DNA of 64,000 bases from Candidatus Levyibacteriota bacterium. GTDB taxonomy: Bacteria; Patescibacteriota; Microgenomatia; Levybacterales; UBA12049. The position numbers and the translations under genes are program-made. The notes beneath the pieces are model-generated. The model did no database searches and had not been told where the DNA came from. It worked only from the letters and a program-made list of their open reading frames with translations. Below, piece by piece: positions 1 to 25,555 of this stretch. The DNA lies in contig DAIDHL010000001.1 of assembly GCA_027459745.1 (NCBI GenBank), forward strand, positions 13,828 through 77,827, read 5' to 3'. Each line of letters opens with the position of its first letter. Position 1 is the stretch's first letter.

Positions 1-61
1 AGTTATTGCTTATTATCAGGATTATCGTCATAGCTTAAATAAAAAAAACATTATAAATTTT

Positions 62-1132
62 ATGATGGCAATTTTGGCTCCCTATGTTTTCTTTCTATTT
101 TATTTATTAGTCACAGGAAGTTTTTCTGATTATGCTTATCAATCCATAATTTTTAATGAAAAATATTATATTTACAACTATCCAGGATTACAAAACGGAC
201 ATATTAATCCAATACGTTTTGCCATTGTTATGGCATACAATTTTTATAGTAATTTTTATACCTTATTAGTCCAGGTAAAAAATTTCAATTTCCCTTTTCC
301 TCTAAATATTACCTTGGCTGTAGTAGACCTTACATTACTGGTGTATGTTTTTTTCAGACGAAATTATTCGCTGTTTATTTTTATAATTCTGTATATGATT
401 TATGCCAATGCAAGATCAAACCCTTTGGATTCTGGAGAAACCGACTATCAATCAAGTGTCTATCTTTTTATGTCTCTAATTTCGTTAGTATATGTCCTAG
501 ATTCTTTATATAGTGAACTTCATTTACAAATTAATCTGGGCAAGAAAGTAATTCTTTCTAGTCTCCTTATATTATGCACGATATATAGTTTTTTTAGTGT
601 GGCTATGTTAACAGATCGTTTTTTGGGGAAAGCTTATGGTAAATATATGGGTACAGCACCCCGGATCTATGACAACTATGATCCGGCAGTTAATATCAAC
701 AATGCTATATCCAGCCCAAATGACTATATTTGGATGGGACCACTAGATTTTCAGGACTATTATTATGCAACCGGCAAACTAGCCTCTAAGTATCATATTC
801 TGATTCCTGGTATGGGGAAATCCCAGAAGATTCAGAATGAATTTATTGCAGAGATATCTACTCACAAACCTAAACTTATCTTTTTACAAAAAAATGATTT
901 TATTTTAGGTTCAGATCCTACTAAATACGGCGTTTATTTTATGAACTTTCTTAGTGCTAACTATGTCACTTTGAGTCAATACCGTCAAGGATCGGTCGCA
1001 TATACATCAACTATACAAAATAGTAAATATAGCCTCGATGAAGATATGTTCATAAACAAAGATGACGCAGATAATATAATTTCTACTCTGCTTAATGATA
1101 ATTTTATTAAACCTGTATATGCCACTCATTAA
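62..1132 (+). CDS. Hypothetical polytopic membrane protein with a soluble C-terminal domain of about 170 aa. It may be 5'-partial, because the reading frame stays open back to nt 2.
   Basis: ORF track. The N-terminal half has several hydrophobic helices (ILAPYVFFLFYLLV, LAVVDLTLLVYVFF, VILSSLLILCTIYSFFSVAML). There is no in-frame stop between the window start and the ATG at 62. Confidence 0.4.
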   Translation: MMAILAPYVFFLFYLLVTGSFSDYAYQSIIFNEKYYIYNYPGLQNGHINPIRFAIVMAYNFYSNFYTLLVQVKNFNFPFPLNITLAVVDLTLLVYVFFRRNYSLFIFIILYMIYANARSNPLDSGETDYQSSVYLFMSLISLVYVLDSLYSELHLQINLGKKVILSSLLILCTIYSFFSVAMLTDRFLGKAYGKYMGTAPRIYDNYDPAVNINNAISSPNDYIWMGPLDFQDYYYATGKLASKYHILIPGMGKSQKIQNEFIAEISTHKPKLIFLQKNDFILGSDPTKYGVYFMNFLSANYVTLSQYRQGSVAYTSTIQNSKYSLDEDMFINKDDADNIISTLLNDNFIKPVYATH

Positions 1133-2627
1133 ATCTACAAAAATCTATTGGTTTTTATTCCTAGTTATTCTAATGATTTGTTCGTACCTAAGACTGCAAA
1201 GCTCATTTAGCGGTACTTTTGCCTATACCTATGATATTGGCAGAGACATGCTAAATATTGCTAGTATTGTATATGGACATCATATTACTCTAATTGGCCC
1301 CACAACCGGCCAGGAAGGTATTTTTTATGGACCCTGGTGGTATTGGCTGCTTTCACCTTTTTTTGTACTTTTTGCCGGAAGTGTCAAGGGGATAGATGCG
1401 GTTATGGGATTAACTGGCGTCATTACTGTTTTGCTAGCTTATTGGGTAGGGTATAAAGTAGCTGGGAAGTGGAATGGTTTATTATTTATGGTTTTGTTTG
1501 GTATAGCCGGTTCATTAATCGATACTTCTTCCCAAATTTGGAATCCTAATATAGCTCCTTTTATTTTGATGTGTATTATAACTGTTTTTATTAAGTATTC
1601 TGAAGAAAAAAAAGAATTCAAAAAAATACTTTGGATGTTAGTTGTTGGTATTTTATCCACTATAACTTTAGATTCATTGGAAATAGTATATGGCACTGTA
1701 CAGTTTATAGCCGTTGTAATATTCATGCTTTTTTATTTTAGAAATAAGCTTAATCTTTTTCAGATTTGGTCATTCATTTTAGGCATTCTAATTATAGAAC
1801 TACCAAGATTCTTATTTGAAATTAGGCATCAATTTATTATGTCTAAAGCCTTATTTAACTATATATTCCATCATGCCCCGGTTAGCCAGCAGGGAGGAAT
1901 ATTTGAACAATTTGTAAAAGTCTTAAATTTAATGATGCAATTATGGCAGTCGACTATTAGTCTTCCACTCATTTGGGCTATCGTTGTTTTTATTATTACA
2001 GTTTTGAGTCTTTTGTATTTTAAAAACAAAACGAAATTTCACAAGGTAGAGAACTTACTTTATGTATTTAGTGTTTGCTATCTGTTTTGTTATTTTGTGA
2101 TATTGTCCTTCTTTAAGGGGAATGTTTGGGATCATTTTGTGGTGGGCATTCCGGTTGTTTATGAAATTTTATTCTCACTTTTTATATATAAATTGTTTTT
2201 ACATCTTAAGAAAACGAACAACAATTATGCAAAACTATTTGTAGCATTAATGATTATATATGTACTGGAGGTTTTGTTCTCATATCGACCTACTAAGACT
2301 GATTTTTTTATCAATGATCCTTCGATTTATAATAATCAAGTTGCAGTTATTAAATACATTTACTCACAAGCAGGTGGTAGGCATTTTAACTATGATGTAT
2401 ATACACCTCCAATTCATCCTTATACTTATGAATATTTGTTTAATTTTTACAGCAAAAAATATTATCCACCTAGTAACGATGGACATTTGTTATTTTATAT
2501 TATTGAACAGGATAAAAATCACCCAACTCTTAGACAGAATTGGTTAACATTGCATGATAAAAGAGGTAAAGTTATAAAAACAATAACGCTTCCTGGACAT
2601 ATCATTGTTCAAACAAGGAATATTTAA
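1095..2627 (+). CDS. Polytopic membrane protein, candidate GT-C-type glycosyltransferase; tandem paralog 1 of 4.
   Basis: About 12 predicted TM helices. It shares the N-terminal loop motif D-x-G-R-D...L-I-G-P...G-x-x-x-G-P-W-W-Y-W with the ORFs at 2605, 4852 and 6426. Confidence 0.45.
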   Translation: MIILLNLYMPLIKSTKIYWFLFLVILMICSYLRLQSSFSGTFAYTYDIGRDMLNIASIVYGHHITLIGPTTGQEGIFYGPWWYWLLSPFFVLFAGSVKGIDAVMGLTGVITVLLAYWVGYKVAGKWNGLLFMVLFGIAGSLIDTSSQIWNPNIAPFILMCIITVFIKYSEEKKEFKKILWMLVVGILSTITLDSLEIVYGTVQFIAVVIFMLFYFRNKLNLFQIWSFILGILIIELPRFLFEIRHQFIMSKALFNYIFHHAPVSQQGGIFEQFVKVLNLMMQLWQSTISLPLIWAIVVFIITVLSLLYFKNKTKFHKVENLLYVFSVCYLFCYFVILSFFKGNVWDHFVVGIPVVYEILFSLFIYKLFLHLKKTNNNYAKLFVALMIIYVLEVLFSYRPTKTDFFINDPSIYNNQVAVIKYIYSQAGGRHFNYDVYTPPIHPYTYEYLFNFYSKKYYPPSNDGHLLFYIIEQDKNHPTLRQNWLTLHDKRGKVIKTITLPGHIIVQTRNI

Positions 2628-4092
2628 TATGAGAATTTCGCTGTTAATTGTAAAAAAATATCTTAGTTTATCAAATTTCCTATTAGTATTGATCCTTCTT
2701 GTTTCAGCATTTTTCCGTTTCTATAACACTCCAGCTCGATATGGATTTGATTTTGACCCAACCCGTGATGCATTGATTATTACATATGCTGCTAAATATT
2801 TTCATTTACCTCTTATAGGAGCAGCCTCAGGAATTGCACCTATTACCTTCGGCCCATGGTATTACTATCAGATGATTATATGGCAGATTATCTTTCCTTT
2901 TACTTATTCTGCATGGTACTTGGTCGGTATTACCTCAGTACTTGTGAGCTTTTTCCTTTATAAAATAGGGGGTATGCTGGAGAATAAGTGGTACGGTTTA
3001 ATTCTGGCCTTGTTTGCAGCAATTTCTCCATCTGAAACAGGACAAACCCAAGGATTAAGTAATCCCGATCTGATTCCCATTTATTCAACCTTGATAATCT
3101 GGATGTTTGTCAGGTTTAGTAATTACAAAAATGCAGATTGGAAATGGTTATTTATGTGGGGATTTTTATTGAGTATAGGAATTAATATCCATTATCAGAT
3201 GCTGGGACTGATTCTACTACCTATATTTTATTTTATTCTTTATCACAAAAACAATATTTTAAAAGTTAGTTCATTTACCATTGGATTCTTTCTACCTTGG
3301 ATACCTTTGGTTATTTTTAATGTGCTGACTAATTGGAGCACACTGACTGGAACAATATATTTTACGCATAATCATGGATATATCGCTAATGGATGGAAAT
3401 TATATTTAAGCAATTTCTGGCTGCCGTTTTGGTCTTATATTTGGGGTGTAAATAATCTAATAGGAATCTTGATATTTCTATTTACTTTAATTATCTTTAT
3501 CTATCTTTTAGTAAGAAAAAAATTAAGCACAACATATTTAATTCTCATAAGCGTATTTTTAATTAATTTTTTAATTTTGCGTTATGCTATTGCACAAAGA
3601 GACTATTATTATTATCTGTATTTACATAGTTTAATTTTTATTTTTTTTGCCACAGCTTTATGGCAGATAAAAAAAATAAAATTCGGACTGTTAGTGATCA
3701 GTTTGTTAATATTTGTAATTACTATTTCTATGTTGGGTAAGGATTTTATCCCTCTTCAAGCAAGAAAAGATCAAAGCGACATGCTAAAAATGGCGAACAT
3801 GTTTATTAATCAATCAAATGGTAAAAAAATAACCTTGTTCGCTTGCGGAAAGGCTGGGCAGAATTATGTACAAGGAGTTGAATTCTTTCTTATGCAGACA
3901 AACAAGTTATCTGACAATACAACTGGAGCAAGATATGGTATTGCGGATTTTAGTTGTCCTTTAAAATTAACCTCAACTATTATTACAGTTGATTTGAGAT
4001 CAAGCTCTCTTAAGGATATAAATAAACAAGGATGGAAACTAATTACACCAGAAATAGTCTATAATAATACTCTAGAGTGGTGGAAAAAATAA
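2605..4092 (+). CDS. Polytopic membrane protein, candidate GT-C-type glycosyltransferase; tandem paralog 2 of 4.
   Basis: Carries the same loop motif (DPTRD...HLPLIGAASGIAPITFGPWYYY). Multi-TM, with the C-terminal region weakly similar to the other paralogs. Confidence 0.45.
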   Translation: MFKQGIFNMRISLLIVKKYLSLSNFLLVLILLVSAFFRFYNTPARYGFDFDPTRDALIITYAAKYFHLPLIGAASGIAPITFGPWYYYQMIIWQIIFPFTYSAWYLVGITSVLVSFFLYKIGGMLENKWYGLILALFAAISPSETGQTQGLSNPDLIPIYSTLIIWMFVRFSNYKNADWKWLFMWGFLLSIGINIHYQMLGLILLPIFYFILYHKNNILKVSSFTIGFFLPWIPLVIFNVLTNWSTLTGTIYFTHNHGYIANGWKLYLSNFWLPFWSYIWGVNNLIGILIFLFTLIIFIYLLVRKKLSTTYLILISVFLINFLILRYAIAQRDYYYYLYLHSLIFIFFATALWQIKKIKFGLLVISLLIFVITISMLGKDFIPLQARKDQSDMLKMANMFINQSNGKKITLFACGKAGQNYVQGVEFFLMQTNKLSDNTTGARYGIADFSCPLKLTSTIITVDLRSSSLKDINKQGWKLITPEIVYNNTLEWWKK

Positions 4093-4093
4093 T

Positions 4094-4855
4094 ATGAAAA
4101 AACTATCATTCATAACCTCAACTTTTAATGAAGAGAAGAACTTAGTTGATTGTCTTGAATCAATTAAGGATATCGCTGATGAGATTATATTGGTTGATGG
4201 GAGTTCCCAGGATAAGACGGTACAAATTGCTAAAAAATATGGGGCAAAGGTAAAAGTGACTGATAATCCACCAATTTTTTTGATCAACCGACAAAAAGCC
4301 ATCGATATGGCAACTAAAGATTGGATTCTCAATCTAGATGCTGATGAGAGGATTACTCCTGAATTGGAGAAAGAGATTAAGGATGTTTTAAAAGACGATA
4401 ATGGAAGTTTTAACGGGTATTGGATTCCCCGTAAGAATTGGTACTTGGGACGTTATTTAATGAAAGGTGGGGTATACCCTGATTATCAGTTAAGATTATA
4501 TCGCAAAGGAAAGGTTCATTTCGCACTCAAAGACGTTCATGAACAGGCAATTGTTCAAGGAAAGGTGGGTTATTTGCAACATCCTATGATTCATTTATCA
4601 GATCCTGAGTTTAAACGTTATATATTACGATTAAATCGTTATACTGACCGTATAGCAGATGAGTTAGCAGATAAACATATCGGAAAAGACCCCTTTACAG
4701 CCTTTAACTATTTTTTTATTAAACCGCTTTGGTGGTTTATTTTAACTTATGGAAGACATAAGGGTTTTATGGATGGATGGCAAGGATTGGTATTCTCTTT
4801 TTTTTCAGCTTCGCGTTTTTCAGTTGCTTATTACAAGTACCTTAAAATTAAATGA
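4094..4855 (+). CDS. Glycosyltransferase family 2 (GT-A fold).
   Basis: N-terminal GT2 signature (LSFITSTFNEEKNLVDCLESI...ILVDGSSQD...NLDADE), with the DxD-like motif DAD. Confidence 0.7.
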   Translation: MKKLSFITSTFNEEKNLVDCLESIKDIADEIILVDGSSQDKTVQIAKKYGAKVKVTDNPPIFLINRQKAIDMATKDWILNLDADERITPELEKEIKDVLKDDNGSFNGYWIPRKNWYLGRYLMKGGVYPDYQLRLYRKGKVHFALKDVHEQAIVQGKVGYLQHPMIHLSDPEFKRYILRLNRYTDRIADELADKHIGKDPFTAFNYFFIKPLWWFILTYGRHKGFMDGWQGLVFSFFSASRFSVAYYKYLKIK

Positions 4856-6429
4856 ATGTAAAAAACCTCAATTTAATACTATCCTATTTTCATAAAAATT
4901 GGCTACTAATATTTTTTATTGGGCTTACAATATTGGGACTTTATTTAAGATTTTATAACCTGCCTCTGAGAGTCGAATTAGGTGAAGATAACGGTCGTGA
5001 TATATCCATAGCCAAAGAAGCACTACTTAGGCATGAGCTACCTTTAATTGGATCTTTTAGCTCAGCTGGGCCTTTTGTTTTTGGTCCAATATATCTTTGG
5101 ACCCTTATGTTTAGTTTTGTTTTAATTCCTTCTTTTTACGCTCCATGGATTATCCTTGGCCTGCTAGAAATTATCACAGTAGCTGTTAGTTACTTAATCG
5201 GCTTAAGATTGGGAGGTAAATTGTCTGGTTTGATAATATTCTTTCTAGCAATCTTATCGCCTCAGTTGGTAGACAGTTCAACATACCTCATGCAGCATTC
5301 TTTTGTGGGATTATTTTCACTACTTAGTTTATTATTTTTTATCTTACTGTGGCAAGTTAAAAAAAATATATTTTCTTTGTTTTTAGGTTTAAGTGTAGGG
5401 GCAGCTATTAGCTTCCATTATCAGGCTATCAATTTACTAGTCGTCTTACCTTTTATATTTTTTATACCACAAATTAAATGGCCAAAGAAAATATTTATAG
5501 TCTTTCTTTTCTTCTTAGGATTATTTCTTACTCTTATGCCCTTATTTATATGGGATTACCAGCAGAAATTTGCCAATTTTCGCAATATTTTAGATTATTT
5601 TCTAATCGCTCAATACAGGATATATGTACCAAATAGTTGGAAGTTATTTATGTTTAGTTATGCTCCTAATTTTTTGAGTTATATTTCCGGGGGTAATAGT
5701 TTAATATTTTTTTATGAGTTCATAATAATCATCATTTCCGGAGTTTTGGCGTGGTATAAGAAAAGTTTCAATAATATCCTTATATCTATAATATTTATGT
5801 TTGTGCTTCTTTTAATACTAAATCGTTATTACAGGGGAGAAAGATCAGAAGGGTACTTATATTATTTTGTCCCTTTCGTTCTGATATCAGTTGGTATGTC
5901 CATCTCTTATATCTTTAGATATATATATCAGATTAATAAACGTTATTATGTTGCTGTGGCATTTTTGATAATTAGCTTACTAGTCATAGGAGTAGGAGAT
6001 TATTTGCGGATGCAAAAGGTGCCCTACTCAGGAATCTCAGTTACTCAAAGAGGAGATCAAATCATTAACTCTATAACTTCTAAGTTTCCAGGTCAAAAGT
6101 TTAGTTTATACGATTATAGAGCTAAATCTATAAATACGACAGCCTATCTAAGTGTAATTATGACAGATAAAAATTTATTAACTGAAAACGGAGTACCTAT
6201 CGGTGTAGCCAATATAAAAGATTATACGAAAGTCTCTCTTCCTATAATTTTTAAAAATGGTGAAGTTTATTTTGTAGATCTTAGTTCTCTACATATAAAA
6301 AGAACAAATAAAAATTGGGAAAAAATGAATCAAGCAGATATTTATGATACATTGATTGGTTGGTCTAATAAACATGAACTAACTTCTACATTTGATTTAA
6401 ATAGTTATCTCTTATCAAAATTTAAATGA
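4852..6429 (+). CDS. Polytopic membrane protein, candidate GT-C-type glycosyltransferase; tandem paralog 3 of 4.
   Basis: Carries the motif GEDNGRD...HELPLIGSFSSAGPFVFGPIYLW. Its C-terminus (DIYDTLIGWSNKHELTSTFDLNSYL) is conserved with the ORF at 6426. Confidence 0.5.
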   Translation: MNVKNLNLILSYFHKNWLLIFFIGLTILGLYLRFYNLPLRVELGEDNGRDISIAKEALLRHELPLIGSFSSAGPFVFGPIYLWTLMFSFVLIPSFYAPWIILGLLEIITVAVSYLIGLRLGGKLSGLIIFFLAILSPQLVDSSTYLMQHSFVGLFSLLSLLFFILLWQVKKNIFSLFLGLSVGAAISFHYQAINLLVVLPFIFFIPQIKWPKKIFIVFLFFLGLFLTLMPLFIWDYQQKFANFRNILDYFLIAQYRIYVPNSWKLFMFSYAPNFLSYISGGNSLIFFYEFIIIIISGVLAWYKKSFNNILISIIFMFVLLLILNRYYRGERSEGYLYYFVPFVLISVGMSISYIFRYIYQINKRYYVAVAFLIISLLVIGVGDYLRMQKVPYSGISVTQRGDQIINSITSKFPGQKFSLYDYRAKSINTTAYLSVIMTDKNLLTENGVPIGVANIKDYTKVSLPIIFKNGEVYFVDLSSLHIKRTNKNWEKMNQADIYDTLIGWSNKHELTSTFDLNSYLLSKFK

Positions 6430-7994
6430 AAAAAATTATTAAAAGTTTTAACTCACATTGGTATTTTTTCACAATAATTTTAATAATTATCATAGCGGGA
6501 ATAATAAGATTCTATAGCTTTAATACTTCCTGGGGGATTGGGGGGACAGACACACCCAGGGATATAATGATTTCTTCAATCGCTTTACATAGACACGAAT
6601 TACCCTTAATTGGACCTTTCAGCTCAGCCGGTCCATTTGTAACTGGACCTTTATATTTTTGGATATTAATGCCGGCAATGCTTTTCTTGCCCTTTTCTTT
6701 ATCTGCACCATTTATTTACTTCATAATGCTATCGTTACTTTTTATATTAATAATGATTTTATTAGGAAAATATTTAGTAGGAGAAATGTTTTCTTTGTTA
6801 TTGGGAATTATTGTAACATTTAGTCCCGAGAGTATTCTCTCTTCCTATACACTTAATAATCCAAACCTGGTTCCTTTATTTACTGCTCTATCTTTGTTGT
6901 TTTTCGTAATGCTAATTTATAAGCAAAAGTGGTTATATGCATTATTAATGGGATTGAGCGTGGGTATAACAATTAGCTTACATTATCAAGGTTTAAATTT
7001 ATTAATTATGATTCCTCTAATACTGGCTATTTATAATATTAAACTGCTTAACCGTTTATTTAGTTTTTTACTCTCAATTATAGGACTAATAATAACTTTT
7101 ATCCCAATTATGATTTGGGACAGCCAACAAGGTTTTGCAAATATACGTAATGTGTTGGATTATTTTTTGATAGGCCAATATAGAATGTATGTACCCAACA
7201 GCTGGAAGATTTTCTTATTAAACTTTATGCCAGATCAGTGGGCTAAAGTAATCGGAGGTTTTTATATTATAAGTCTCGTACTTATGATTTTTACACTATT
7301 TTATATCTCGTATTTATTTATAAAATTCAAAAAACAAAAACTAGAGCTAGAGTTACTTGCTATAATTTTTGTGATTTTAATTGTCGTAAACCGCTTTTAC
7401 CACGGCCTGCGACAGGAATCGTATGTGTTATATTTTTCGCCATTTATTCTTTTATTCTCCACTTTGGCTATTTATTATTTATTTATTACTATTAGGAATA
7501 AATTCAAAAATATTCCTTACATTTTTAATATCCTAGGAGGGGTTTTTATTTTATTAGTCTTAGGTTCTGGTTTACTTAGTATTGAAAATAGTTTTATTAA
7601 ACCTCAGTACCAGATGAGTAATTTAAATAATTCTGTCAATAAATTAACATCATTATACCCCCATGATAAGTTTTTGGTATTTGATTATAAAAATATGCAG
7701 AATGGTAAAAGTATGCTTTTAAGTCTGGAATTATATCGCAGGGGTTTGGAGGCCCCTCAAGGAGTAAGAATTGGCACAAGTTGCGATGCTTCCTGTGCAG
7801 TTGGGTATAGGAAATTAAATATAAGTGATTTGAATCTCGTAGAAATTCCCAAGATTGTTAAAATTAGTCAGATAGACTGGGTAAATGATAATGCGGATAA
7901 TAATTATGACCTTTTGATCGGATGGTCTAAAAAACATTTACTAAAATCCAGTTTCGATTTAAGCCAATACCTTAAAATGAGTGGCGCTAAGTGA
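6426..7994 (+). CDS. Polytopic membrane protein, candidate GT-C-type glycosyltransferase; tandem paralog 4 of 4.
   Basis: Carries the motif GGTDTPRD...HELPLIGPFSSAGPFVTGPLYFW. Its C-terminus (NYDLLIGWSKKHLLKSSFDLSQYL) is conserved with the ORF at 4852. Confidence 0.5.
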   Translation: MKKIIKSFNSHWYFFTIILIIIIAGIIRFYSFNTSWGIGGTDTPRDIMISSIALHRHELPLIGPFSSAGPFVTGPLYFWILMPAMLFLPFSLSAPFIYFIMLSLLFILIMILLGKYLVGEMFSLLLGIIVTFSPESILSSYTLNNPNLVPLFTALSLLFFVMLIYKQKWLYALLMGLSVGITISLHYQGLNLLIMIPLILAIYNIKLLNRLFSFLLSIIGLIITFIPIMIWDSQQGFANIRNVLDYFLIGQYRMYVPNSWKIFLLNFMPDQWAKVIGGFYIISLVLMIFTLFYISYLFIKFKKQKLELELLAIIFVILIVVNRFYHGLRQESYVLYFSPFILLFSTLAIYYLFITIRNKFKNIPYIFNILGGVFILLVLGSGLLSIENSFIKPQYQMSNLNNSVNKLTSLYPHDKFLVFDYKNMQNGKSMLLSLELYRRGLEAPQGVRIGTSCDASCAVGYRKLNISDLNLVEIPKIVKISQIDWVNDNADNNYDLLIGWSKKHLLKSSFDLSQYLKMSGAK

Positions 7995-8055: not shown

Positions 8056-9024
8056 ATGAATATTCTTGTGACAGGTGGAGCAGGCTATATTGGCAGTATA
8101 ACGGTTCGTAGGCTACTCAAAGAAGGGCATAACGTTACAGTCTTTGATAATTTAGTCTATGGCCACAAGGAGAACGTAGACTGTCCTCTTATTGTGGGTG
8201 ATCTGACTGATAAAGAATTCCTATTTAGTTCTTTAAAAGATAAGCAATTCGATGGAGTTATTCATTTTGCTGCCTATGCCTATGTAGGAGAATCAATGCA
8301 AAATCCTTACAAATATTTTTATAGCAATTTGAATGGCGGTTTAAATCTACTAGAATATATGGTTGCCCGAAAGATTTCTTCGATTGTTTTTTCTTCCAGC
8401 TGTACTGTATTTGGTACTCCCAAGCAACTTCCAGTTAAAGAAACTGATCCGCAAGATACTGAAAATGTTTATGGAGAGACAAAGCTAATGTTTGAAAAAA
8501 TGCTGGTCTGGTATGACAAAATATTTGGTATTAAATCAATTATTCTACGGTATTTTAATGCTTCTGGGGCAGCTTTAGACGGAAGTTTAGGTGAAAATCA
8601 TAACCCTGAGACTCATATCATTCCTATAGCTCTTCAAGTGGCTCAGGGCAAGAGACAAGAGTTTGAAATGTATGGTAATGATTATGATACCCCTGACGGG
8701 ACATGCATTCGTGATTATATACATGTTGAAGACCTGGCTACCGCCCATATTTTAGCTCTTCATAAGTTAGCAAATGATAAAATCAGTGATAATTTTAATT
8801 TGGGTACAGGCCATGGGTATTCTAATAAAGAAGTTATTTCCATGATTGAAAAAATCACTGGCAAACAAATTCCTGTAATTTTTAAACCCCGAAGATTTGG
8901 TGATGCTCCAGCTATTTATGCCGATAATTCTAAAGCTAAGAATATACTTGGATTTACGCCGGAGCATTCAGATTTAGAAACCATTATTTCTACAGCCTGG
9001 GATTGGCATAAAAAGAGCAGTTAA
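8056..9024 (+). CDS. galE: UDP-glucose 4-epimerase.
   Basis: The N-terminus MNILVTGGAGYIGS is a Rossmann GxxGxxG motif. The active-site YGETK motif is present, and overall GalE-like SDR architecture runs along the whole length. Confidence 0.85.
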   Translation: MNILVTGGAGYIGSITVRRLLKEGHNVTVFDNLVYGHKENVDCPLIVGDLTDKEFLFSSLKDKQFDGVIHFAAYAYVGESMQNPYKYFYSNLNGGLNLLEYMVARKISSIVFSSSCTVFGTPKQLPVKETDPQDTENVYGETKLMFEKMLVWYDKIFGIKSIILRYFNASGAALDGSLGENHNPETHIIPIALQVAQGKRQEFEMYGNDYDTPDGTCIRDYIHVEDLATAHILALHKLANDKISDNFNLGTGHGYSNKEVISMIEKITGKQIPVIFKPRRFGDAPAIYADNSKAKNILGFTPEHSDLETIISTAWDWHKKSS

Positions 9025-9034: not shown

Positions 9035-10117
9035 ATGAACATAGCTCTAGATATAACGCCCATTAGCTCTAATAGTAATTCTCAGCACAAGGTAAGAGGA
9101 GTTGGTTTTTATATTAAGAATCTTAAAAATTCTCTTACAAAATATCTTCCTGATAATAATTATCAATTTGTTGATGACTTAAATAAGATTGATTCCTCTA
9201 CAAACCTTTTGCATATACCTTATTTCGATCCTTTTTTTGTACATCTACCTAAATTTAAAAAATATTCTACTATAGTAACCATTCATGATTTAACCCCGCT
9301 TATATTTCCGGAACATTTTCCAATTGGTTTAAAGGGAAATATTAAATGGCAGATACAAAAACATCTGGTTAAACAAGCGGATGCTATTATTACTGATTCG
9401 CAATCTTCAAAAAAAGATATTGTTTCTTTGTTAAAATTTAACTCAGAAAAAGTTCACGTAGTTTATTTAGCAGCAGGGGAAGAGTTTAAACGTAGTATAA
9501 ATAATCAAAAGCAGAAAAGAGAAATGCTTACAAAATATAATTTGCCGGAAAGATTTGTACTGTATGTTGGGGATGTTACTTGGAATAAGAATCTACCTCT
9601 TCTGATAAAAGCGGTCAAAAAACAACAAATTCCTCTTGTTATGATAGGTAGCGCTTTATCTCAAGCTAATTACGATAGAACAAATCCTTGGAATAGTGAT
9701 CTTAATATGATTAATAAAGAAATTGAGAATGTTAAATATATTCATACACTAGGCTTTGTTCCTAGTCAGGACCTGGTAGATATTTACAATTTGGCTACGT
9801 GTTTAGTTTTGCCTTCTATTTATGAGGGATTTGGTCTGACTGTCCTGGAGGCCATGCAGTGTGGTTGTCCCGTTATTACGACGAGAAATGGTTCTTTACC
9901 TGAAATAGCAGGAAATGCAGCTCTATATATCAATGGAGAAGATGAAAATGATATTATAGAAGGAATACAGAAGCTTTTTTCATCTGAAAAATTGCAAAAA
10001 GAACTTTGTCTTAAAGGGTTGGAACAAGCTAGAAATTTTTCCTGGGAAAAAACAGCCAAACAAACGATGAATGTATACAAGTCCGTCTATGAAGCAACAC
10101 ATAACTCGTCTTTATAA
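9035..10117 (+). CDS. Glycosyltransferase family 4 (GT-B, Glycos_transf_1).
   Basis: C-terminal EGFGLTVLEAMQCGCPVITT nucleotide-sugar binding motif. Confidence 0.75.
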   Translation: MNIALDITPISSNSNSQHKVRGVGFYIKNLKNSLTKYLPDNNYQFVDDLNKIDSSTNLLHIPYFDPFFVHLPKFKKYSTIVTIHDLTPLIFPEHFPIGLKGNIKWQIQKHLVKQADAIITDSQSSKKDIVSLLKFNSEKVHVVYLAAGEEFKRSINNQKQKREMLTKYNLPERFVLYVGDVTWNKNLPLLIKAVKKQQIPLVMIGSALSQANYDRTNPWNSDLNMINKEIENVKYIHTLGFVPSQDLVDIYNLATCLVLPSIYEGFGLTVLEAMQCGCPVITTRNGSLPEIAGNAALYINGEDENDIIEGIQKLFSSEKLQKELCLKGLEQARNFSWEKTAKQTMNVYKSVYEATHNSSL

Positions 10118-11354
10118 CAATCCTCTAATTTCCGGAAGTACAGTAATCTTAGTGGGGAGTTTTGTGGGCAATCTGGTAAACTTCTTTTTTAATCAGCAGA
10201 TGGTTTCTCGTCTCCCTTTGGATCAGTACGGTGTATTAGCGCTTATTCTTGCGTTTGTCAATTTGCCTGGCTTTGCCTTCAGTTTTATAAATTTGATTAT
10301 TGTTAGTTATACAGGTGGAATGTTTGTGAAAAAGGAGATGGGTAAAGTAAAAGGTTTTTTTATGACTGTTTATACTTTCACTTTGCCTATAATTTTTCTC
10401 CTCTTTGTTTTATCACTCTTTTCACTCACAGGTTTTAAATCTTTTTTTCATATTACTTCAACTCCATTATTGGTCATAGCCATTGTGATAATTGTTATAT
10501 CAGTATTTAGTGTAATTAATCAGGCATTTTTACAAGCAAAACTGTCATTTTTTTATCTTACTAGCATCAATTTCTTATCGGCTGTTATGAAGTTTTTCTT
10601 TACACTGGCAGCTTTTTTTCTCGGTTGGGGACTGGAGGGAATTACTTACGGCATTCTTCTTGCTTATCTTATTGCTTATATCCTAACATTTATTCCTATG
10701 ACTTTCCTTCGTACTCACGCTCGGGAATATCATGATATACATCCGGGTAATTTATTCTCTTATAGCTGGCAGTCAGCAGTTTCATTAATTTCCTTAACGG
10801 CTTTTATTTCTACTGATCTTTTTTTAGTAAAACATTTCTATTCGCCAGATCAGGCTGGATTGTATGCTGGACTAACATTTTTAGGTAGAGTAATCTTCTT
10901 TTTTAGCGGTCCTATTGCCTCAGCTATGTTTCCTATAATAGTGCAGAAACAGGAGAAAGGCGAAAAGTATATAAACACATATTGGCTTGCGCTGATACTA
11001 GTCACGGGTTTTTCTATTGCTATAGCTGCTTTTTATAGTATTTTCCCTCAATTTATTGTAAGTTTGTTCCTTAGGAAAAGTGATTATTTATCTATATCTT
11101 ATTTGGTGGGATACTACGCATTAGTAATGGTAGTTTATACAATGCTTTCAACAACAGTTAATTTTTATTTATCGATTAAGAAAACTTCAGTTTGGATGAC
11201 CTTATTTAGCGGGGCTGTGGTACAAGCTATTTTGTTGTATCTTTTTCATCAATCTTTTTCTCAAATTGTAACTATTAATCTGATGCTTGAATCAATTGTA
11301 TTGATTTTCCTTCTTATTCAGCTACAATTGACAGGACATGAAAAAAAGAACTAA
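10071..11354 (+). CDS. Polysaccharide biosynthesis protein, candidate Wzx-like oligosaccharide flippase. The true start is probably at an internal Met.
   Basis: About 12 TM helices in a protein of roughly 420 aa within a glycan cluster. The 5' end overlaps the upstream glycosyltransferase. Confidence 0.5.
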   Translation: MYTSPSMKQHITRLYNNPLISGSTVILVGSFVGNLVNFFFNQQMVSRLPLDQYGVLALILAFVNLPGFAFSFINLIIVSYTGGMFVKKEMGKVKGFFMTVYTFTLPIIFLLFVLSLFSLTGFKSFFHITSTPLLVIAIVIIVISVFSVINQAFLQAKLSFFYLTSINFLSAVMKFFFTLAAFFLGWGLEGITYGILLAYLIAYILTFIPMTFLRTHAREYHDIHPGNLFSYSWQSAVSLISLTAFISTDLFLVKHFYSPDQAGLYAGLTFLGRVIFFFSGPIASAMFPIIVQKQEKGEKYINTYWLALILVTGFSIAIAAFYSIFPQFIVSLFLRKSDYLSISYLVGYYALVMVVYTMLSTTVNFYLSIKKTSVWMTLFSGAVVQAILLYLFHQSFSQIVTINLMLESIVLIFLLIQLQLTGHEKKN

Positions 11355-12084
11355 GAAACTTTCAATAGTAGTTCCAACATACAGACAAGAAAAAACCATA
11401 GAGACAGATATAAAATCTATTGCAGGTGTAATCGCCAAATTAAATATAGATTATGAAATTATAGTGGTGGTGGATGGAGTTGTTGATAATTCTCATCTTA
11501 AATTAAAAAAAATTAATAACAAGGAAATTAAGATCATAATTTTTGATGAGAATCAAGGTAAAGGTAAAGCTGTATGTGAAGGAGTCTTATCAGCGTCTGG
11601 TGATGTTATAGGTTTTATTGATGGTGGTATGGATATTAATCCCAAAGAGATTGAACAAATGTTGGAAATTATGATATCAAACAATGCTGATATTGTTATT
11701 GGAAGTAAATTACATCCAGACTCAAAGGTCAGTTATCCACTAAGCCGAAGAATATTATCTTGGGGCTATCGTACATTAACACACATGTTGTTTGGATTTA
11801 ATGTCAAAGATACACAAGTAGGATTAAAATTATTTAAACGCAAAGTTGCACGAGATGTATTTTCGAGAATTTTAGTTAAGAGATTTGCATTCGACGTTGA
11901 GGTGCTGGCAGTGGCATATAAACTGGGGTATACCAGAATTGTTGAAGCACCAATAATTCTTGATTTTACTGGAGTTAGCAGTATAACTTCAAAAAGTTTT
12001 TGGCGTGTAATAGGATGGATGTTGTGGGATACAGCTGCTGTGTATTATCGGTTACGGATTTTACATTATTACGATAAAAAATGA
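11338..12084 (+). CDS. Glycosyltransferase family 2.
   Basis: N-terminal LSIVVPTYRQEKTI...VVVDGVVDNS; this is a GT2 fold signature. Confidence 0.7.
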   Translation: MKKRTKKLSIVVPTYRQEKTIETDIKSIAGVIAKLNIDYEIIVVVDGVVDNSHLKLKKINNKEIKIIIFDENQGKGKAVCEGVLSASGDVIGFIDGGMDINPKEIEQMLEIMISNNADIVIGSKLHPDSKVSYPLSRRILSWGYRTLTHMLFGFNVKDTQVGLKLFKRKVARDVFSRILVKRFAFDVEVLAVAYKLGYTRIVEAPIILDFTGVSSITSKSFWRVIGWMLWDTAAVYYRLRILHYYDKK

Positions 12085-24625: not shown

Positions 24626-25555
24626 ATGATCAGTTATGTAATTCCAGTCTACAACGAGGAAGAGAGTTTGTCCGCATTTTATAAAGAACTCAAAAAAGTT
24701 ATAAGCAAGATAAAAGATTCAGCTGAAATTATTTTTATTGATGACGGTTCTACAGATTCTTCTTTAAGATTATTAAAAGATTTATCTAAAAAAGATAAAT
24801 TTGTTAGAATATTTTCTTTTCGCAAAAATCAGGGTAAAGCAGAAGCTTTAACGCTTGGTTTTCAAAAAGCAAAAGGAGAATATGCAGTAACACTAGATGC
24901 AGATTTACAAGATCGTCCAAGTGAAATAAGTAAACTACTAAAACTTATTAAACAGGATGAGTGGGATATGGTTAGTGGATGGCGATATAAACGACAGGAT
25001 AGTAAGCAAAAAGTAATTTCCTCTAAATTTTTCAATTACCTAGCGCGTAATTTTTGGGGATTATATTTGCATGATTATAATTGTGGGCTAAAAGCATACA
25101 CCTCAGAATGCGCTAAATCTTTAAAACTGTATGGAGGTTTTCACCGTTTTATCCCACTTCTGGCTTATCAGGAAGGATTTCAGGTAACTGAAGTAGCCAT
25201 TGAACATGACAAAAGAAAATTTGGCAAGTCTAAATTCGGGTTTTCCAAGGTTTGGAAGGATCTGCCTGATATCTTTACCATGCTATTTTTGTATAAATAT
25301 AGTAAAAGACCCATGCACTTTTTTGGTATGTTGGGAGGAATAATATTTTTAATAGGTCTTGGAATTTTAATCTACTTGTCTATTATGCATTTTATTGGCT
25401 ATACAATAGGAGATAGACCGCTTTTAACTTATGGAATGCTATTTTTATTAGCCGGGTTACAATCCTTCTTGACTGGATTTTTAGCAGACCTCATAATAAA
25501 CACATCAGCCAAAGAAATTACGCATCATCCACTGCGTTTCTCGACTGATGTTTAA
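24626..25555 (+). CDS. Polyprenol-phosphate glycosyltransferase of the Dpm1/GtrB/ArnC type: a GT2 domain with a C-terminal TM pair.
   Basis: MISYVIPVYNEEESL...IFIDDGSTDSS...TLDADLQDRP. The C-terminus has two TM helices (MHFFGMLGGIIFLIGLGILIYL..., LLTYGMLFLLAGLQSFLTGFLADL), the classic architecture of polyprenyl-phosphate sugar synthases. Confidence 0.75.
   Translation: MISYVIPVYNEEESLSAFYKELKKVISKIKDSAEIIFIDDGSTDSSLRLLKDLSKKDKFVRIFSFRKNQGKAEALTLGFQKAKGEYAVTLDADLQDRPSEISKLLKLIKQDEWDMVSGWRYKRQDSKQKVISSKFFNYLARNFWGLYLHDYNCGLKAYTSECAKSLKLYGGFHRFIPLLAYQEGFQVTEVAIEHDKRKFGKSKFGFSKVWKDLPDIFTMLFLYKYSKRPMHFFGMLGGIIFLIGLGILIYLSIMHFIGYTIGDRPLLTYGMLFLLAGLQSFLTGFLADLIINTSAKEITHHPLRFSTDV

What the first reader, a model, noticed from the sequence alone, without database searches (positions are those of the whole stretch)
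1095..7994. Tandem array of four divergent paralogous GT-C-like polytopic membrane proteins with one embedded GT2
Four consecutive genes of about 500 aa (1095, 2605, 4852, 6426) encode multi-TM proteins. They share an N-terminal loop signature (D-x-x-R-D, about 20 aa, then [HY]-L-P-L-I-G-x-x-S-x-x-G-P-x-x-x-G-P-x-Y-x-W). The last two also share a conserved C-terminus (LIGWS-KH-L-S-FDL-YL). The paralogs are strongly diverged from each other, and a soluble GT2 (4094-4855) is inserted between the second and third. Local expansion of a membrane glycosyltransferase-like family in a small genome suggests several distinct acceptor or donor specificities for cell-surface glycosylation. I could not assign the family (GT39/83-like, GT87-like or novel) from memory alone. 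The first ORF (62-1132) may be a further, window-truncated member.
Basis: partly seen in the sequence, partly recalled or inferred. Interest (0 to 1): 0.6.

Follow-up and report, generated by a model that had tools for sequence, protein, structure and literature searches.

The report
Tandem GT-C glycosyltransferase array, Patescibacteria
The start of this window encodes five membrane glycosyltransferases in a row, plus a cytoplasmic partner enzyme, at the head of a roughly 44 kb cell-surface sugar locus in a small-genome candidate-phyla bacterium; this is a real and conserved example of an enzyme class that is already known.

Summary
Four consecutive + strand genes (A 1095-2627, B 2605-4092, C 4852-6429, D 6426-7994) are true paralogs (BLASTP 1e-8 to 1e-88). 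All four carry D-x-x-R-D just after TM1, and this motif is invariant or nearly so in 72 homologs.

An AlphaFold model of D (pLDDT 93.5) matches only GT-C enzymes (AglB, ArnT, PglB, STT3, Pmt4). 60 of 72 family members hit Pfam PMT_2.

The window-truncated first ORF is a fifth member. Its full-length protein (580 aa, no Pfam hit) also folds as GT-C, and distant relatives carry an N-terminal GtrA flippase domain.

The GT2 is not an accidental insert. About 35 of 118 homologs of D are GT2~GT-C fusions, and GT2 -> GT-C -> GalE-like epimerase is a recurring core across Levy-/Gottesmanbacteria loci. Its closest solved relatives are GmaR and SunS, not ArnC/GtrB/DPMS. Canonical donor synthases lie downstream (11338, 24626).

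Best reading: a set of polyprenyl-phosphate-sugar-dependent transferases that decorate an envelope glycoconjugate outside the membrane.

This is a new member of a known kind, of moderate interest. Acceptors, sugars and the GT2's role remain inferred.

The parts
1..1132 (+). ORF0: the C-terminal 376 aa of a 580-aa polytopic protein (full length = P0121). It is the fifth tandem GT-C and belongs to a family with no Pfam model.
   Evidence: - The frame is open to the window edge.
- P0121 matches at 100% identity over 376 aa and comes from the same 265,673-nt NCBI contig.
- AF2 model: pLDDT 92.0.
- Foldseek top 30 PDB hits are all GT-C, with ArnT 5ezm at 5.8e-6.
- 0 of 57 family members hit a GT-C Pfam model.
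- The catalytic loop (YPDEFDN...LPY.GFFSHHGP) lies upstream of the window.
1095..2627 (+). Paralog A (510 aa). It is the most divergent member of the D-x-x-R-D family, and its C-terminal domain differs from those of C and D.
   Evidence: - Scores 2e-39 against the HMM of outside homologs, covering positions 10-426 of 517.
- D47-I-G-R-D51 is present.
- Own orthologs exist in other loci at up to 1e-106, and 1e-262 in L062.
2605..4092 (+). Paralog B (495 aa from TTG 2605, or 487 aa from ATG 2629).
   Evidence: - Pfam PMT_2: 26.4 bits against a cut-off of 26.1.
- 9.5e-95 against the family HMM.
- D51-P-T-R-D55 is present.
4094..4855 (+). Cytoplasmic GT2 (GT-A fold family) with no TM segment and an aromatic-rich, amphipathic C-terminal stretch of about 55 aa. 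It is the partner of the C/D-type GT-C.
   Evidence: - Pfam PF00535 at 6.9e-22.
- 61% identical to residues 3-255 of the 762-aa fusion P0002.
- A profile of 16 orthologs against PDB gives GmaR 1.3e-21, SunS 2.4e-15, DPMS 1.7e-6 (N-terminal 100 aa only), GtrB 4.6e-5 and ArnC 0.45.
- No TM segment.
4852..6429 (+). Paralog C (525 aa). Its start overlaps the GT2 stop (ATGA). It is equivalent to the GT-C half of the fusion proteins.
   Evidence: - 40% identical to residues 257-758 of P0002.
- 1e-172 against the family HMM.
- D46-N-G-R-D50 is present.
6426..7994 (+). Paralog D (522 aa); this is the protein that was modelled.
   Evidence: - AF2 model: pLDDT 93.5.
- Foldseek hits are GT-C only.
- Pfam PMT_2: 22.5 bits, below the cut-off.
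6549..6662 (+). First extracytoplasmic loop signature of D: D42-T-P-R-D46, then 12 residues, then L59-P-L-I-G-P-F-S-S-A-G-P-F-V-T-G-P-L-Y-F-W79. This is the candidate catalytic / lipid-phosphate site.
   Evidence: - Conservation: D42 71/72, R45 69/72, D46 72/72.
- hhalign places D-x-x-R-D on the D-E-T-R-Y motif of E. coli ArnT (E 8.5e-4, prob 24%).
- The loop follows TM1 (helix 12-29) in the model.
7905..7973 (+). C-terminal conserved motif of the soluble extracytoplasmic domain of D (Y494-D-L-L-I-G-W-S-K-K-H-L-L-K-S-S-F-D-L-S-Q-Y-L). It is shared with C and with their orthologs.
   Evidence: - Alignment of the paralogs.
- Column counts across homologs.
- An alpha/beta domain spans residues 397-522 in the model.
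8056..9024 (+). GalE-like NAD-dependent sugar-nucleotide epimerase. It is the third member of the conserved GT2 / GT-C / epimerase core.
   Evidence: - Pfam Epimerase at 7e-57.
- An epimerase follows the C/D-type gene in L001, L002, L003 and many genome loci.
10071..11354 (+). Wzx-type (MOP family) 12-TM flippase candidate.
   Evidence: - Pfam Polysacc_synt_3 at 8e-11.
- 12 hydrophobic segments.
- Found at the same position in L001 and L003.
11338..12084 (+). TM-less DPMS-like GT2; a candidate polyprenyl-phosphate-sugar synthase.
   Evidence: - PDB: DPMS 5mlz at 7.8e-16 over the whole catalytic domain, followed by ArnC and GtrB.
- NCBIfam gives a sub-threshold PpgS-like hit.
24626..25555 (+). 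ArnC/GtrB-type GT2 with two C-terminal TM helices; a canonical undecaprenyl-phosphate-sugar synthase candidate.
   Evidence: - NCBIfam ArnC at 6e-46 over the full length, but below the equivalog cut-off.
- PDB: ArnC 9e-38, GtrB 1.9e-26.
- TM helices at 239-257 and 273-291.
32240..33745 (+). A sixth GT-C in the window. It belongs to a different PMT_2 subfamily and has no D-x-x-R-D motif.
   Evidence: - Pfam PMT_2: 33.4 bits, above the cut-off.
- hhalign against the family profile: prob 93%, E 3.4e-7.

Best explanation
**What the genes are.** Window 1-7994 encodes five tandem, anciently diverged GT-C-fold integral-membrane glycosyltransferases: ORF0, A, B, C and D. A-D belong to a Patescibacteria-centred subfamily of Pfam PMT_2 (ArnT/PMT-like). 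ORF0 belongs to a sister family that has no Pfam model.

**Topology.** Each enzyme has its N-terminus in the cytoplasm. After the first transmembrane helix comes an extracytoplasmic loop carrying an acidic motif: D-x-x-R-D in A-D, D-E-F-D-N in ORF0.

**Inferred mechanism.** Each enzyme takes a sugar from a polyprenyl-phosphate-linked donor at the outer face of the membrane. It transfers that sugar to an envelope acceptor, either a cell-wall or surface glycopolymer or a glycoprotein. The acceptor would be the product of the roughly 44 kb Wzx/Wzy-type glycan locus that follows. Different paralogs would serve different acceptor positions or different sugars.

**The GT2.** The 253-aa GT2 is the cytoplasmic partner of the C/D-type enzyme. 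Together with the downstream GalE-like epimerase it forms a conserved module. Most likely the epimerase supplies a UDP-hexose 4-epimer, the GT2 loads it onto the lipid carrier at the inner face, a flippase (the Wzx-type gene at 10071 is the local candidate) turns it over, and C or D transfers it.

**Shown versus inferred.**
- Shown: paralogy, motif conservation, GT-C fold, the GT2~GT-C and GtrA~GT-C fusions in relatives, and synteny.
- Inferred: the lipid-linked donor, the GT2 acting as donor synthase, the identity of the sugars and acceptors, and the division of labour among the paralogs.
For: **Fold.**
- D model: pLDDT 93.5, with only GT-C hits.
- ORF0 full-length model: pLDDT 92.0, with only GT-C hits.

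**Family.** 60 of 72 homologs hit PMT_2, and B passes the Pfam cut-off.

**Catalytic-loop motif.**
- It is invariant or nearly so in 72 homologs and present in all four paralogs.
- It aligns with the D-E-T-R-Y motif of ArnT.

**Topology.** In the fusion proteins the cytoplasmic GT2 is joined directly to TM1. This puts the N-terminus inside and loop 1 outside.

**GT2 fusion and adjacency evidence.**
- About 35 of 118 homologs of D are 750-790-aa proteins carrying PF00535.
- The fusion was confirmed as one ORF in two independent assemblies and in 7 genome loci.

**Flippase fusion evidence.**
- About 27 of the top 150 ORF0-family representatives have an N-terminal extension of about 140 aa.
- 3 of 3 tested extensions are GtrA_DPMS_TM. 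This links the family to Und-P-sugar flipping.
- The fusion gene was also seen in two independent assemblies.

**Conserved context.**
- L003 has the same gene order as the window.
- L001 has at least 8 tandem PMT_2 genes plus the fusion plus the epimerase.
- GT2 -> C/D -> epimerase recurs across loci.

**Supply genes in the window.**
- An ArnC/GtrB-type GT2 and a DPMS-type GT2.
- A Wzx-like gene.
- A DegT aminotransferase, a formyltransferase, a 2-epimerase, a Bac_transf initiating enzyme and a Wzy_C-like protein.

**Precedent.** Multi-component transmembrane glycosylation systems (GT2 + flippase + GT-C) are described, including a TM-less GT2 (WpsA/GacI) that makes C55-P-GlcNAc, in PMC10821137.
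Against: - No biochemical evidence exists for any member.
- The GT2's closest solved relatives are GmaR and SunS, which are protein/peptide glycosyltransferases using nucleotide sugars. ArnC, GtrB and DPMS match only weakly, over the N-terminal 100 residues.
- Two better-matching donor synthases exist elsewhere in the locus, so the GT2 may do something else.
- No GtrA-type flippase gene was found in the window or in the related loci, although the test was a low-sensitivity 3-sequence HMM.
- Sequence links to ArnT are weak (hhalign prob 24%), and profile searches of PDB find nothing.
- TM-scores to solved GT-Cs are only 0.5-0.6 for D and 0.36-0.46 for ORF0.
- Only 40 of 79 genome loci have a window-type GT2 within 10 kb, and only 17 have it fused or immediately upstream.
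Confidence: 0.72

Rival explanations
1. The GT-C identity is the same, but the embedded GT2 is not the donor synthase. It would be a cytoplasmic glycosyltransferase that modifies a lipid-linked intermediate or a protein substrate before export. The lipid-phosphate-sugar donors for the GT-C enzymes would come from the DPMS-like GT2 (11338) and the ArnC-like GT2 (24626).
For: - The GT2 profile's best PDB matches are GmaR (1.3e-21, over the whole GT-A domain) and SunS (2.4e-15). ArnC scores only 0.45.
- The controls behave as expected. 24626 hits ArnC at 9e-38, and 11338 hits DPMS at 7.8e-16 over the full domain.
- 11338 sits next to the Wzx-like gene in a conserved pair.
Against: - Fusion of the GT2 to TM1 of the GT-C in about 30% of homologs, and the self-contained GT2 / GT-C / epimerase triad, are most simply explained by donor synthesis for the attached transferase.
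- TM-less GT2 enzymes that load C55-P are known (WpsA/GacI; PMC10821137).
- Acceptor specificity is poorly predicted by GT-A subfamily.
Confidence: 0.35
2. The array is a set of protein O-glycosyltransferases in the PMT (GT39) sense. They would glycosylate Ser/Thr of secreted or surface proteins such as pilins, S-layer proteins or adhesins, rather than a polysaccharide or a lipid.
For: - The Pfam family that matches is PMT_2.
- NCBI names some homologs 'glycosyltransferase family 39 protein'.
- Pmt4 and Pmt1/2 are among the Foldseek hits.
- The partner GT2's nearest solved relatives glycosylate proteins or peptides.
Against: - None of A-D hits PF02366 (PMT proper) at E <= 1.
- ArnT gives the most complete mutual coverage (TMq 0.57 / TMt 0.55), whereas the Pmt1/Pmt2 and S. 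cerevisiae Pmt4 matches cover only about half the model.
- The genes are embedded in a Wzx/Wzy-type polysaccharide locus.
- The acceptor class cannot be read from sequence.
Confidence: 0.25
3. They are en-bloc transferases (oligosaccharyltransferase or ligase/polymerase type, like PglB, AglB or WaaL). They would move a preassembled Und-PP-linked oligosaccharide onto its final acceptor.
For: - The top Foldseek E-values for D are to AglB and PglB.
- One homolog is named 'Oligosaccharyl transferase STT3 subunit' by its source (P0102).
- The locus has an initiating phosphoglycosyltransferase and a Wzx.
Against: - The WWDxG motif is absent in 0/72 and 0/57 sequences.
- Target coverage is low for AglB and PglB (TMt 0.33-0.42) because their large C-terminal domain is missing.
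- A separate Wzy_C/O-antigen-ligase-like protein is present at 29059.
- The fusions to GT2 and to GtrA point to Und-P-monosaccharide chemistry.
Confidence: 0.07
4. Some paralogs, A in particular, are catalytically dead remnants or scaffolds of a decaying duplication and are not working enzymes.
For: - A and B are only 19-27% identical to C and D.
- The L-P-L-I-G / G-P block is degenerate in A.
- In the nearest relative, L062, the C/D region is replaced by a single inverted GT-C, so the array turns over.
Against: - All four keep D-x-x-R-D.
- A has full-length orthologs at 1e-88 to 1e-106 in many genomes, which implies long-term purifying selection.
- All are intact ORFs with coupled starts.
Confidence: 0.05

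Closest known systems
ArnT / ArnC lipid A aminoarabinose system (GT83 GT-C plus GT2 Und-P-sugar synthase plus ArnE/F flippase)
   Same: - A polytopic GT-C of about 520-550 aa with a small C-terminal extracytoplasmic domain.
- Best mutual structural coverage among the solved structures.
- The loop-1 motif D-x-x-R-[DY] aligns with the ArnT motif D-E-T-R-Y.
- The window also holds ArnC-like, ArnB-like (DegT) and formyltransferase genes.
   Different: - There is no LPS in this lineage, so the acceptor must differ.
- Sequence similarity is marginal (prob 24%).
- There are five to six paralogs instead of one.
- The adjacent GT2 is GmaR/SunS-like, not ArnC-like.
- No ArnE/F or ArnD homologue was noticed.
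Multi-component transmembrane glycosylation systems of Gram-positive bacteria and phages (GtrA/B/C; CsbB-GtcA-YfhO; CsdCD/CflA; GacI/J/K/L)
   Same: - The logic is a cytoplasmic GT2 that loads C55-P, then a flippase (GtrA or Wzx type), then a GT-C that decorates a wall polymer (PMC10821137).
- All three functions are linked here by gene fusion in relatives: GT2~GT-C and GtrA~GT-C.
- A TM-less GT2 loading C55-P has a precedent in WpsA/GacI.
   Different: - Known systems have one GT-C per module and separate genes.
- Here up to 5 GT-C genes (window) or at least 8 (L001) are tandem.
- The fused GT2 is of another GT2 clade.
- No GacJ/WpsB-like activator and no GtrA gene was found locally.
Rhizobium RgtA/RgtB/RgtC/RgtD with RgtE (own knowledge; Brown et al. 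2012 J Biol Chem 287:935, seen only as a reference)
   Same: Several paralogous ArnT-like GT-C enzymes, some encoded side by side, use one lipid-phosphate-sugar donor made by a GT2, and each serves a different acceptor position.
   Different: - The acceptor there is LPS core / lipid A.
- The number of paralogs is smaller.
- No fusion proteins are known.
- The paper could not be read here, so the comparison rests on memory.
Mycobacterial cell-envelope GT-C enzymes (EmbA/B/C, AftA-D, MptA/B, PimE; PpgS-Rv3779)
   Same: - Many GT-C paralogs per genome build or decorate an envelope polysaccharide outside the membrane from polyprenyl-phosphate monosaccharides.
- AftA/B, Emb and AftD are among the Foldseek hits.
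- A related locus carries an MptA_B-family gene.
   Different: - Different GT-C families (GT53/85/87/89).
- The enzymes are much larger (Emb, AftD).
- There is no evidence here for chain-building as opposed to decoration.
Protein O-mannosyltransferases (GT39, Pfam PMT PF02366)
   Same: - Same clan and the same conserved N-terminal TM module.
- An acidic loop-1 motif.
- Homologs are named GT39 by NCBI.
   Different: - No PF02366 hit for A-D.
- No MIR domains.
- The structural match to Pmt1/2 covers only about 260-300 columns.

Membership tests
GT-C fold superfamily | Polytopic membrane protein (8-13 TM) with a conserved N-terminal TM module, as seen in solved GT-C structures | tested here: met
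   - D model: pLDDT 93.5, top 47 PDB hits all GT-C, prob 1.00, TMq 0.50-0.59.
- ORF0 full-length model: pLDDT 92.0, top 30 hits all GT-C.
- A, B and C are included by homology to D.
- These are predicted structures, not experimental ones.
GT-C fold superfamily | Conserved acidic residue(s) in the first extracytoplasmic loop | tested here: met
   - D42 71/72 and D46 72/72.
- The motif is present in A, B, C and D.
- The ORF0 family has invariant D47, E48 and D50.
- The location outside the membrane is inferred from the GT2 fusion at the N-terminus.
GT-C fold superfamily | Uses a lipid-phosphate-linked sugar donor | not testable with these tools
   Only indirect evidence is available: the GtrA~GT-C and GT2~GT-C fusions in relatives and the ArnC-/DPMS-like synthases in the locus.
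Pfam PMT_2 (PF13231; ArnT/RgtA-D-like) | Score at or above the gathering threshold of 26.1 bits | tested here: inconclusive
   - B scores 26.4 (passes), D scores 22.5 (fails), and A and C have no hit at E <= 1.
- 60 of 72 homologs match at E <= 1e-3, with the best at 9.5e-14.
- The family as a whole belongs to PMT_2; the individual window proteins are borderline.
GT83 ArnT | Detectable homology to ArnT, including the loop-1 D-E-x-R-Y motif | tested here: inconclusive
   - hhalign of the family profile against E. coli ArnT gives prob 24%, E 8.5e-4, 186 columns, with D-x-x-R-D aligned on D-E-T-R-Y.
- HMM searches of PDB sequences find no ArnT.
- No NCBIfam ArnT hit.
GT39 protein O-mannosyltransferase | Match to Pfam PMT (PF02366), with a D-E loop-1 motif and MIR domain(s) | tested here: not met
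   - No PF02366 hit and no MIR hit for A-D at E <= 1.
- The motif is D-x-x-R-D, not D-E.
- NCBI's 'GT39' names for homologs are automatic annotations.
GT66 oligosaccharyltransferase (STT3/PglB/AglB) | WWDxG motif and a large C-terminal periplasmic domain | tested here: not met
   - WWDxG is found in 0/72 and 0/57 sequences.
- The C-terminal domain is only about 125 aa.
- TMt is 0.33-0.44 to AglB, PglB and STT3.
Gtr-type three-component glycosylation system | A GtrB-type GT2 with two C-terminal TM helices encoded with the GT-C | tested here: inconclusive
   - One is present in the window at 24626-25555 (ArnC 9e-38, GtrB 1.9e-26, 2 TM), but it lies 17 kb from the array.
- The adjacent GT2 (4094) is not of this type.
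Gtr-type three-component glycosylation system | A GtrA-family flippase | tested here: not met
   - No GtrA-like ORF was found in the window or in 80+ related loci with a 3-sequence HMM, which has low sensitivity.
- A Wzx-type protein is present instead.
- The GtrA domain is fused to distant ORF0-family members.
Polyprenyl-phosphate sugar synthase GT2 clade (DPMS/GtrB/ArnC), asked of the embedded GT2 | Full-length catalytic-domain similarity to DPMS, GtrB or ArnC | tested here: not met
   - Profile A6 gives DPMS 1.7e-6 and GtrB 4.6e-5 over the N-terminal ~100 residues only, and ArnC 0.45.
- GmaR scores 1.3e-21 over residues 4-194.
- Failing this test lowers the claim 'it is a DPMS-type enzyme'. 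It does not lower the claim 'it loads a lipid carrier'.

The most novel reading that the evidence does not exclude
The GT2~GT-C proteins (split into two coupled genes in this window) may be self-contained transmembrane glycosylation machines. A GmaR/SunS-clade GT2, not previously known to act on lipid carriers, would load a polyprenyl phosphate on the inner face. The attached GT-C would then use that donor on the outer face, possibly helping to translocate it, since no dedicated GtrA is encoded nearby. Arrays of 5 to 10 or more such GT-C genes in genomes of about 1 Mb would then assemble, not merely decorate, a major envelope polymer extracytoplasmically, as mycobacteria do. This would make the arrays a lineage-defining trait of the cell surface of Microgenomates.
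Probability: 0.15. Interest if true: 0.65.

Novelty: new member of a known kind. Interest (0 to 1): 0.4.

Why it matters
Candidate-phyla (Patescibacteria) bacteria have genomes of about 1 Mb and are thought to live attached to, or dependent on, other cells. Their surface chemistry is almost unknown.

This window devotes about 44 kb to glycan synthesis. Five to six of those genes are GT-C genes, and relatives have eight or more in a row.

If the array does what the evidence suggests, it would create surface-glycan diversity. That diversity could matter for host attachment, phage resistance and envelope stability.

The work also gives three concrete handles:
- a Pfam-less GT-C family (about 1,300 cluster representatives at 50% identity) that can now be annotated;
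- an invariant D-x-x-R-D motif to mutate;
- natural GT2~GT-C and GtrA~GT-C fusions that could be expressed as single polypeptides to test donor and acceptor chemistry.

None of this overturns current understanding of GT-C enzymes.

Tried and rejected
**Sequence-profile searches of PDB with the family.** Neither the 4-sequence nor the 72-sequence profile gave a meaningful hit. The fold had to be shown by structure prediction.

**NCBIfam on ORF0, A-D and the GT2.** Nothing informative for the membrane proteins; the GT2 gave only sub-threshold hits.

**Sequence tests of ORF0 against the family.**
- The A1 HMM, the outside-homolog HMM and hhalign were all non-significant.
- hhalign did align the two loop motifs onto each other.
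- The question was settled only by modelling the full-length protein.

**Looking up the window's own proteins in the contig index.** Not on record, so the upstream half of ORF0 was obtained through the homolog search instead.

**The search for related loci with the 72-sequence alignment.** It was repeated with 16 sequences.

**hhalign of the polytopic ORFs 19154 and 22477 against the family.** No relation was found.

**GtrA search in the window and loci.** Nothing found.

**PADLOC scan.** No defence-system hit.

**Promoter and terminator scan of 1-12500.** Counts were not above shuffled expectation (promoters) or only weakly above (terminators). The one suggestive site is CTGACA-17-TACAAT at 8021-8049, before the epimerase gene.

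**Literature.**
- No paper on GT-C arrays or GT39/ArnT-like genes in Patescibacteria was found.
- No paper on the Glycos_transf_2 + PMT_2 domain architecture was found.
- The Rgt paper could not be opened.

**Rejected explanations.**
- An STT3-type OST: there is no WWDxG motif.
- An assembly or gene-calling artefact as the source of the fusions: the same fused ORF occurs in independent assemblies.

Full report
**1. Observation**

- B ends one base before the GT2 starts.
- GT2/C and C/D share ATGA stop/start overlaps.
- ORF0/A and A/B overlap by a few codons. B could equally start at ATG 2629 instead of TTG 2605.

These junctions indicate a tightly coupled operon-like block.

The four ~500-aa proteins are real paralogs.
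- BLASTP E-values run from 1.8e-8 (A-C) to 1.7e-88 (C-D, 38% identity).
- An HMM built from 68 homologs from other organisms, excluding the window proteins, scores C 1e-172, D 2e-164, B 9.5e-95 and A 2e-39.

The D-x-x-R-D motif is in all four, at A47, B51, C46 and D42.
- Across 72 family members, the first D is kept in 71, the R in 69 and the second D in all 72.
- The downstream L-P-L-I-G...G-P block is likewise conserved.
- The spacer is 12 residues rather than about 20, and the block is degenerate in A and B.

The C-terminal motif shared by C and D is conserved in their orthologs.

The GT2 is PF00535 (6.9e-22) and has no hydrophobic segment long enough for a TM helix.

**2. What the membrane proteins are**

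Pfam gives borderline PMT_2 hits: B at 26.4 bits against a cut-off of 26.1, D at 22.5, and A and C with none. However, 60 of 72 homologs hit PMT_2, the best at 9.5e-14.

Profile searches of PDB sequences find nothing.

An AlphaFold2 model of D built on the 72-sequence alignment is confident (pLDDT 93.5, pTM 0.94).
- Foldseek against PDB returns only GT-C enzymes in its first 47 places: AglB 9e-8, ArnT, PglB, STT3, Pmt4, ALG9/12, AftA/B, Emb and AftD.
- The most balanced coverage is to ArnT (TMq 0.57, TMt 0.55).

hhalign of the family profile against E. coli ArnT is weak (prob 24%, E 8.5e-4). It does, however, place D-x-x-R-D exactly on ArnT's D-E-T-R-Y motif after TM1. From general knowledge of ArnT, PMT and PglB, that position holds the catalytic acidic residue of the first external loop. 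I could not superpose coordinates to confirm this.

WWDxG, the hallmark of STT3-type oligosaccharyltransferases, is absent from all members. No member of the array hits PF02366 (PMT proper).

The family is therefore best filed as a PMT_2 / ArnT-like subfamily of GT-C. It is neither GT39 sensu stricto nor GT66.

**3. The truncated first ORF**

Frame 2 is open from base 2. Sequence methods do not link ORF0 to A-D.

Its full-length product was recovered from the protein collection: P0121, 580 aa, from the same 265,673-nt NCBI contig.
- 221 homologs were found, all unnamed or 'hypothetical', and none has a Pfam domain.
- After TM1, orthologs carry Y-P-D-E-F-D-N...L-P-Y-x-G-F-F-S-H-H-G-P. This visibly parallels the A-D signature, and hhalign aligns the two, although without significance.
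- The model of P0121 is confident (pLDDT 92.0).
- Its first 30 PDB matches are all GT-C, led by ArnT at 5.8e-6.

So the window starts inside a fifth tandem GT-C gene, which belongs to a family that Pfam does not cover.

A full HMMER scan of 1.84 billion cluster representatives finds 1,318 members at E <= 1e-3.
- About 27 of the best 150 have an N-terminal extension of about 140 residues.
- All three extensions that I tested are GtrA_DPMS_TM, the flippase domain of Gtr-type systems.
- The fusion gene is seen in two independent assemblies.
- One distant member passes the PMT_2 threshold at 35.8 bits. This ties the family to PMT_2 through intermediates.

**4. The GT2**

Roughly 35 of the 118 homologs of D are 750-790-aa proteins with PF00535 at the N-terminus.
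- In P0002, residues 3-255 are 61% identical to the window GT2.
- Residues 257-758 of P0002 are 40% identical to C, and there is no linker.
- The fused ORF is intact in independent ENA and Logan assemblies and in seven genome loci.

This shows functional coupling. It also fixes the topology: N-terminus in the cytoplasm, loop 1 outside.

Typing the neighbours by best hit shows a recurring core: GT2 (free or fused), then a C/D-type GT-C, then a GalE-like epimerase. A-type and sometimes ORF0- and B-type genes lie upstream.

The GT2 is not a canonical polyprenyl-phosphate sugar synthase, however. A 16-sequence profile matches as follows:

| PDB protein | E-value | Extent of match |
|---|---|---|
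| GmaR | 1.3e-21 | whole GT-A domain |
| SunS | 2.4e-15 | residues 8-100 |
| DPMS | 1.7e-6 | N-terminal ~100 residues only |
| GtrB | 4.6e-5 | N-terminal ~100 residues only |
| ArnC | 0.45 | N-terminal ~90 residues |

The controls from the same window behave as expected.
- The 309-aa GT2 at 24626, with two C-terminal TM helices, hits ArnC at 9e-38 and GtrB at 1.9e-26.
- The 248-aa GT2 at 11338 hits DPMS at 7.8e-16 over the full domain.

The donor-synthase role of the embedded GT2 is therefore an inference from fusion and synteny, not from family membership. A TM-less GT2 that loads C55-P does have a precedent in WpsA/GacI (PMC10821137).

**5. Context and distribution**

The window is one large glycan locus up to about 43.8 kb. 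It contains the following:
- GalE-like epimerase;
- seven full-length GT4 genes plus a GT4 N-terminal fragment;
- five GT2 genes, counting the embedded one;
- a Wzx-like gene;
- a DegT aminotransferase, a GFO oxidoreductase and a formyltransferase;
- a UDP-GlcNAc 2-epimerase and a hexapeptide acyltransferase;
- a 1063-aa Wzy_C-like protein;
- a sixth GT-C (32240-33745; PMT_2 at 33.4 bits; hhalign 93% to the family);
- a ManC-like enzyme, a Bac_transf initiating enzyme and a DUF4012 protein.

This locus is followed by TatC, RecO and a peptidoglycan/division cluster.

Related loci come almost entirely from Patescibacteria: Levy-, Gottesman- and Curtissbacteria. They include complete chromosomes of 1.09 and 1.14 Mb. 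Many third-party assemblies are titled 'uncultured Gammaproteobacteria'. I take that to be a placeholder label but did not verify it.

- L003 has the same gene order as the window.
- L001 has at least eight PMT_2 genes in a row before the fusion gene, and more GT-C genes after it.
- The nearest relative, L062 (a Levyibacteriota MAG, about 73% nucleotide identity), is colinear except that C and D are replaced by one inverted GT-C. The array therefore turns over between close relatives.
- A-, B-, C/D- and ORF0-types each have orthologs far closer than the paralogs are to each other. The duplications are old.

**6. Mechanism**

The best-supported reading has three parts.
- The GT-C enzymes transfer sugars from polyprenyl-phosphate donors to an envelope acceptor at the outer face of the membrane.
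- The GT2 and the epimerase feed the C/D-type enzyme.
- The ArnC-like and DPMS-like GT2s, with the aminotransferase and formyltransferase genes, can supply other donors, by analogy with the Arn pathway.

The rivals differ in three ways:
- the GT2's role (confidence 0.35 that it is not the donor synthase);
- the acceptor class (protein rather than glycopolymer, 0.25);
- en-bloc transfer (0.07).

**7. Novelty**

Homologs are already labelled 'GT39 family' or 'ArnT family' by NCBI. The multi-component logic is well known. I found no paper describing these arrays or fusions in Patescibacteria.

The finding is a well-supported new member of a known kind, with three modestly new details:
- a Pfam-less GT-C family;
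- GT2~GT-C and GtrA~GT-C fusions;
- a partner GT2 from an unexpected clade.

Noticed in passing
window 19154-21484 and 22477-24567 (+): Two large polytopic proteins (776 aa with about 12 TM; 696 aa with about 10 TM) are paralogs of each other (BLASTP 1.3e-8). They have no Pfam hit. Each carries a G-G-D-[DT] motif right after TM1, followed by a long loop, which is a GT-C-like layout. hhalign shows no relation to the A-D family. NCBIfam gives only a weak MmpA-like hit for the second protein. They may be further GT-C-like enzymes of unknown family.
   Followed up: partly
window 29059-32250 (+): A 1063-aa protein with about 19 hydrophobic segments. It has a Wzy_C/O-antigen-ligase domain scoring just under the Pfam cut-off (31.1 against 31.7 bits). 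It is unusually large for a polymerase or ligase, and it overlaps the start of the sixth GT-C gene (32240).
   Followed up: no
window 14062-16937 and 24626-25555 (+): A DegT aminotransferase, a GFO/IDH/MocA oxidoreductase, a formyltransferase and an ArnC-like GT2 together resemble the ArnB / ArnA-formyltransferase / ArnC logic. This suggests an N-formylated amino sugar carried on undecaprenyl phosphate as one donor for the GT-C enzymes. No ArnD-like deformylase turned up among the Pfam hits.
   Followed up: partly
window 34969-36360 and 36367-37830 (- strand): Two tandem paralogs (49% identity, E 2.7e-160) encode soluble proteins of about 470 aa. They have no confident Pfam domain (a weak DUF4362 hit only). 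They are the only minus-strand genes inside the otherwise + strand glycan locus.
   Followed up: no
L062 9983-12762 compared with window 4094-8056: In the closest relative (about 73% nucleotide identity) the C and D genes are replaced by a single GT-C gene in inverted orientation, lying between the GT2 and the epimerase. The flanks on both sides are colinear. This is evidence of recent rearrangement within the array.
   Followed up: partly
window 25780-26316 (+): A 178-aa ORF containing only the N-terminal Glyco_transf_4 domain lies directly upstream of a complete GT4 gene (26319-27455), to which it is weakly similar (1.2e-8). It may be a split gene or a remnant.
   Followed up: no
L001 1-17000 (ENA contig_12217, 619 kb): A related genome has at least eight consecutive PMT_2 genes. 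These are followed by the GT2~GT-C fusion, the epimerase, another PMT_2 gene and an MptA_B-family GT-C. That is about eleven GT-C genes in 17 kb, a far larger array than in the window.
   Followed up: partly
window 41867-43846 (+) and 43915-45306 (-): A DUF4012 protein with one TM helix sits next to the Bac_transf initiating enzyme. A pectate-lyase-like beta-helix protein on the opposite strand marks the end of the glycan locus. Their functions were not examined.
   Followed up: no
L004-L082 record titles: Many third-party MAG records that carry this Patescibacteria-type locus are titled 'uncultured Gammaproteobacteria' or 'Pseudomonadales'. These are probably placeholder or wrong taxonomic labels in the public records.
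   Followed up: no
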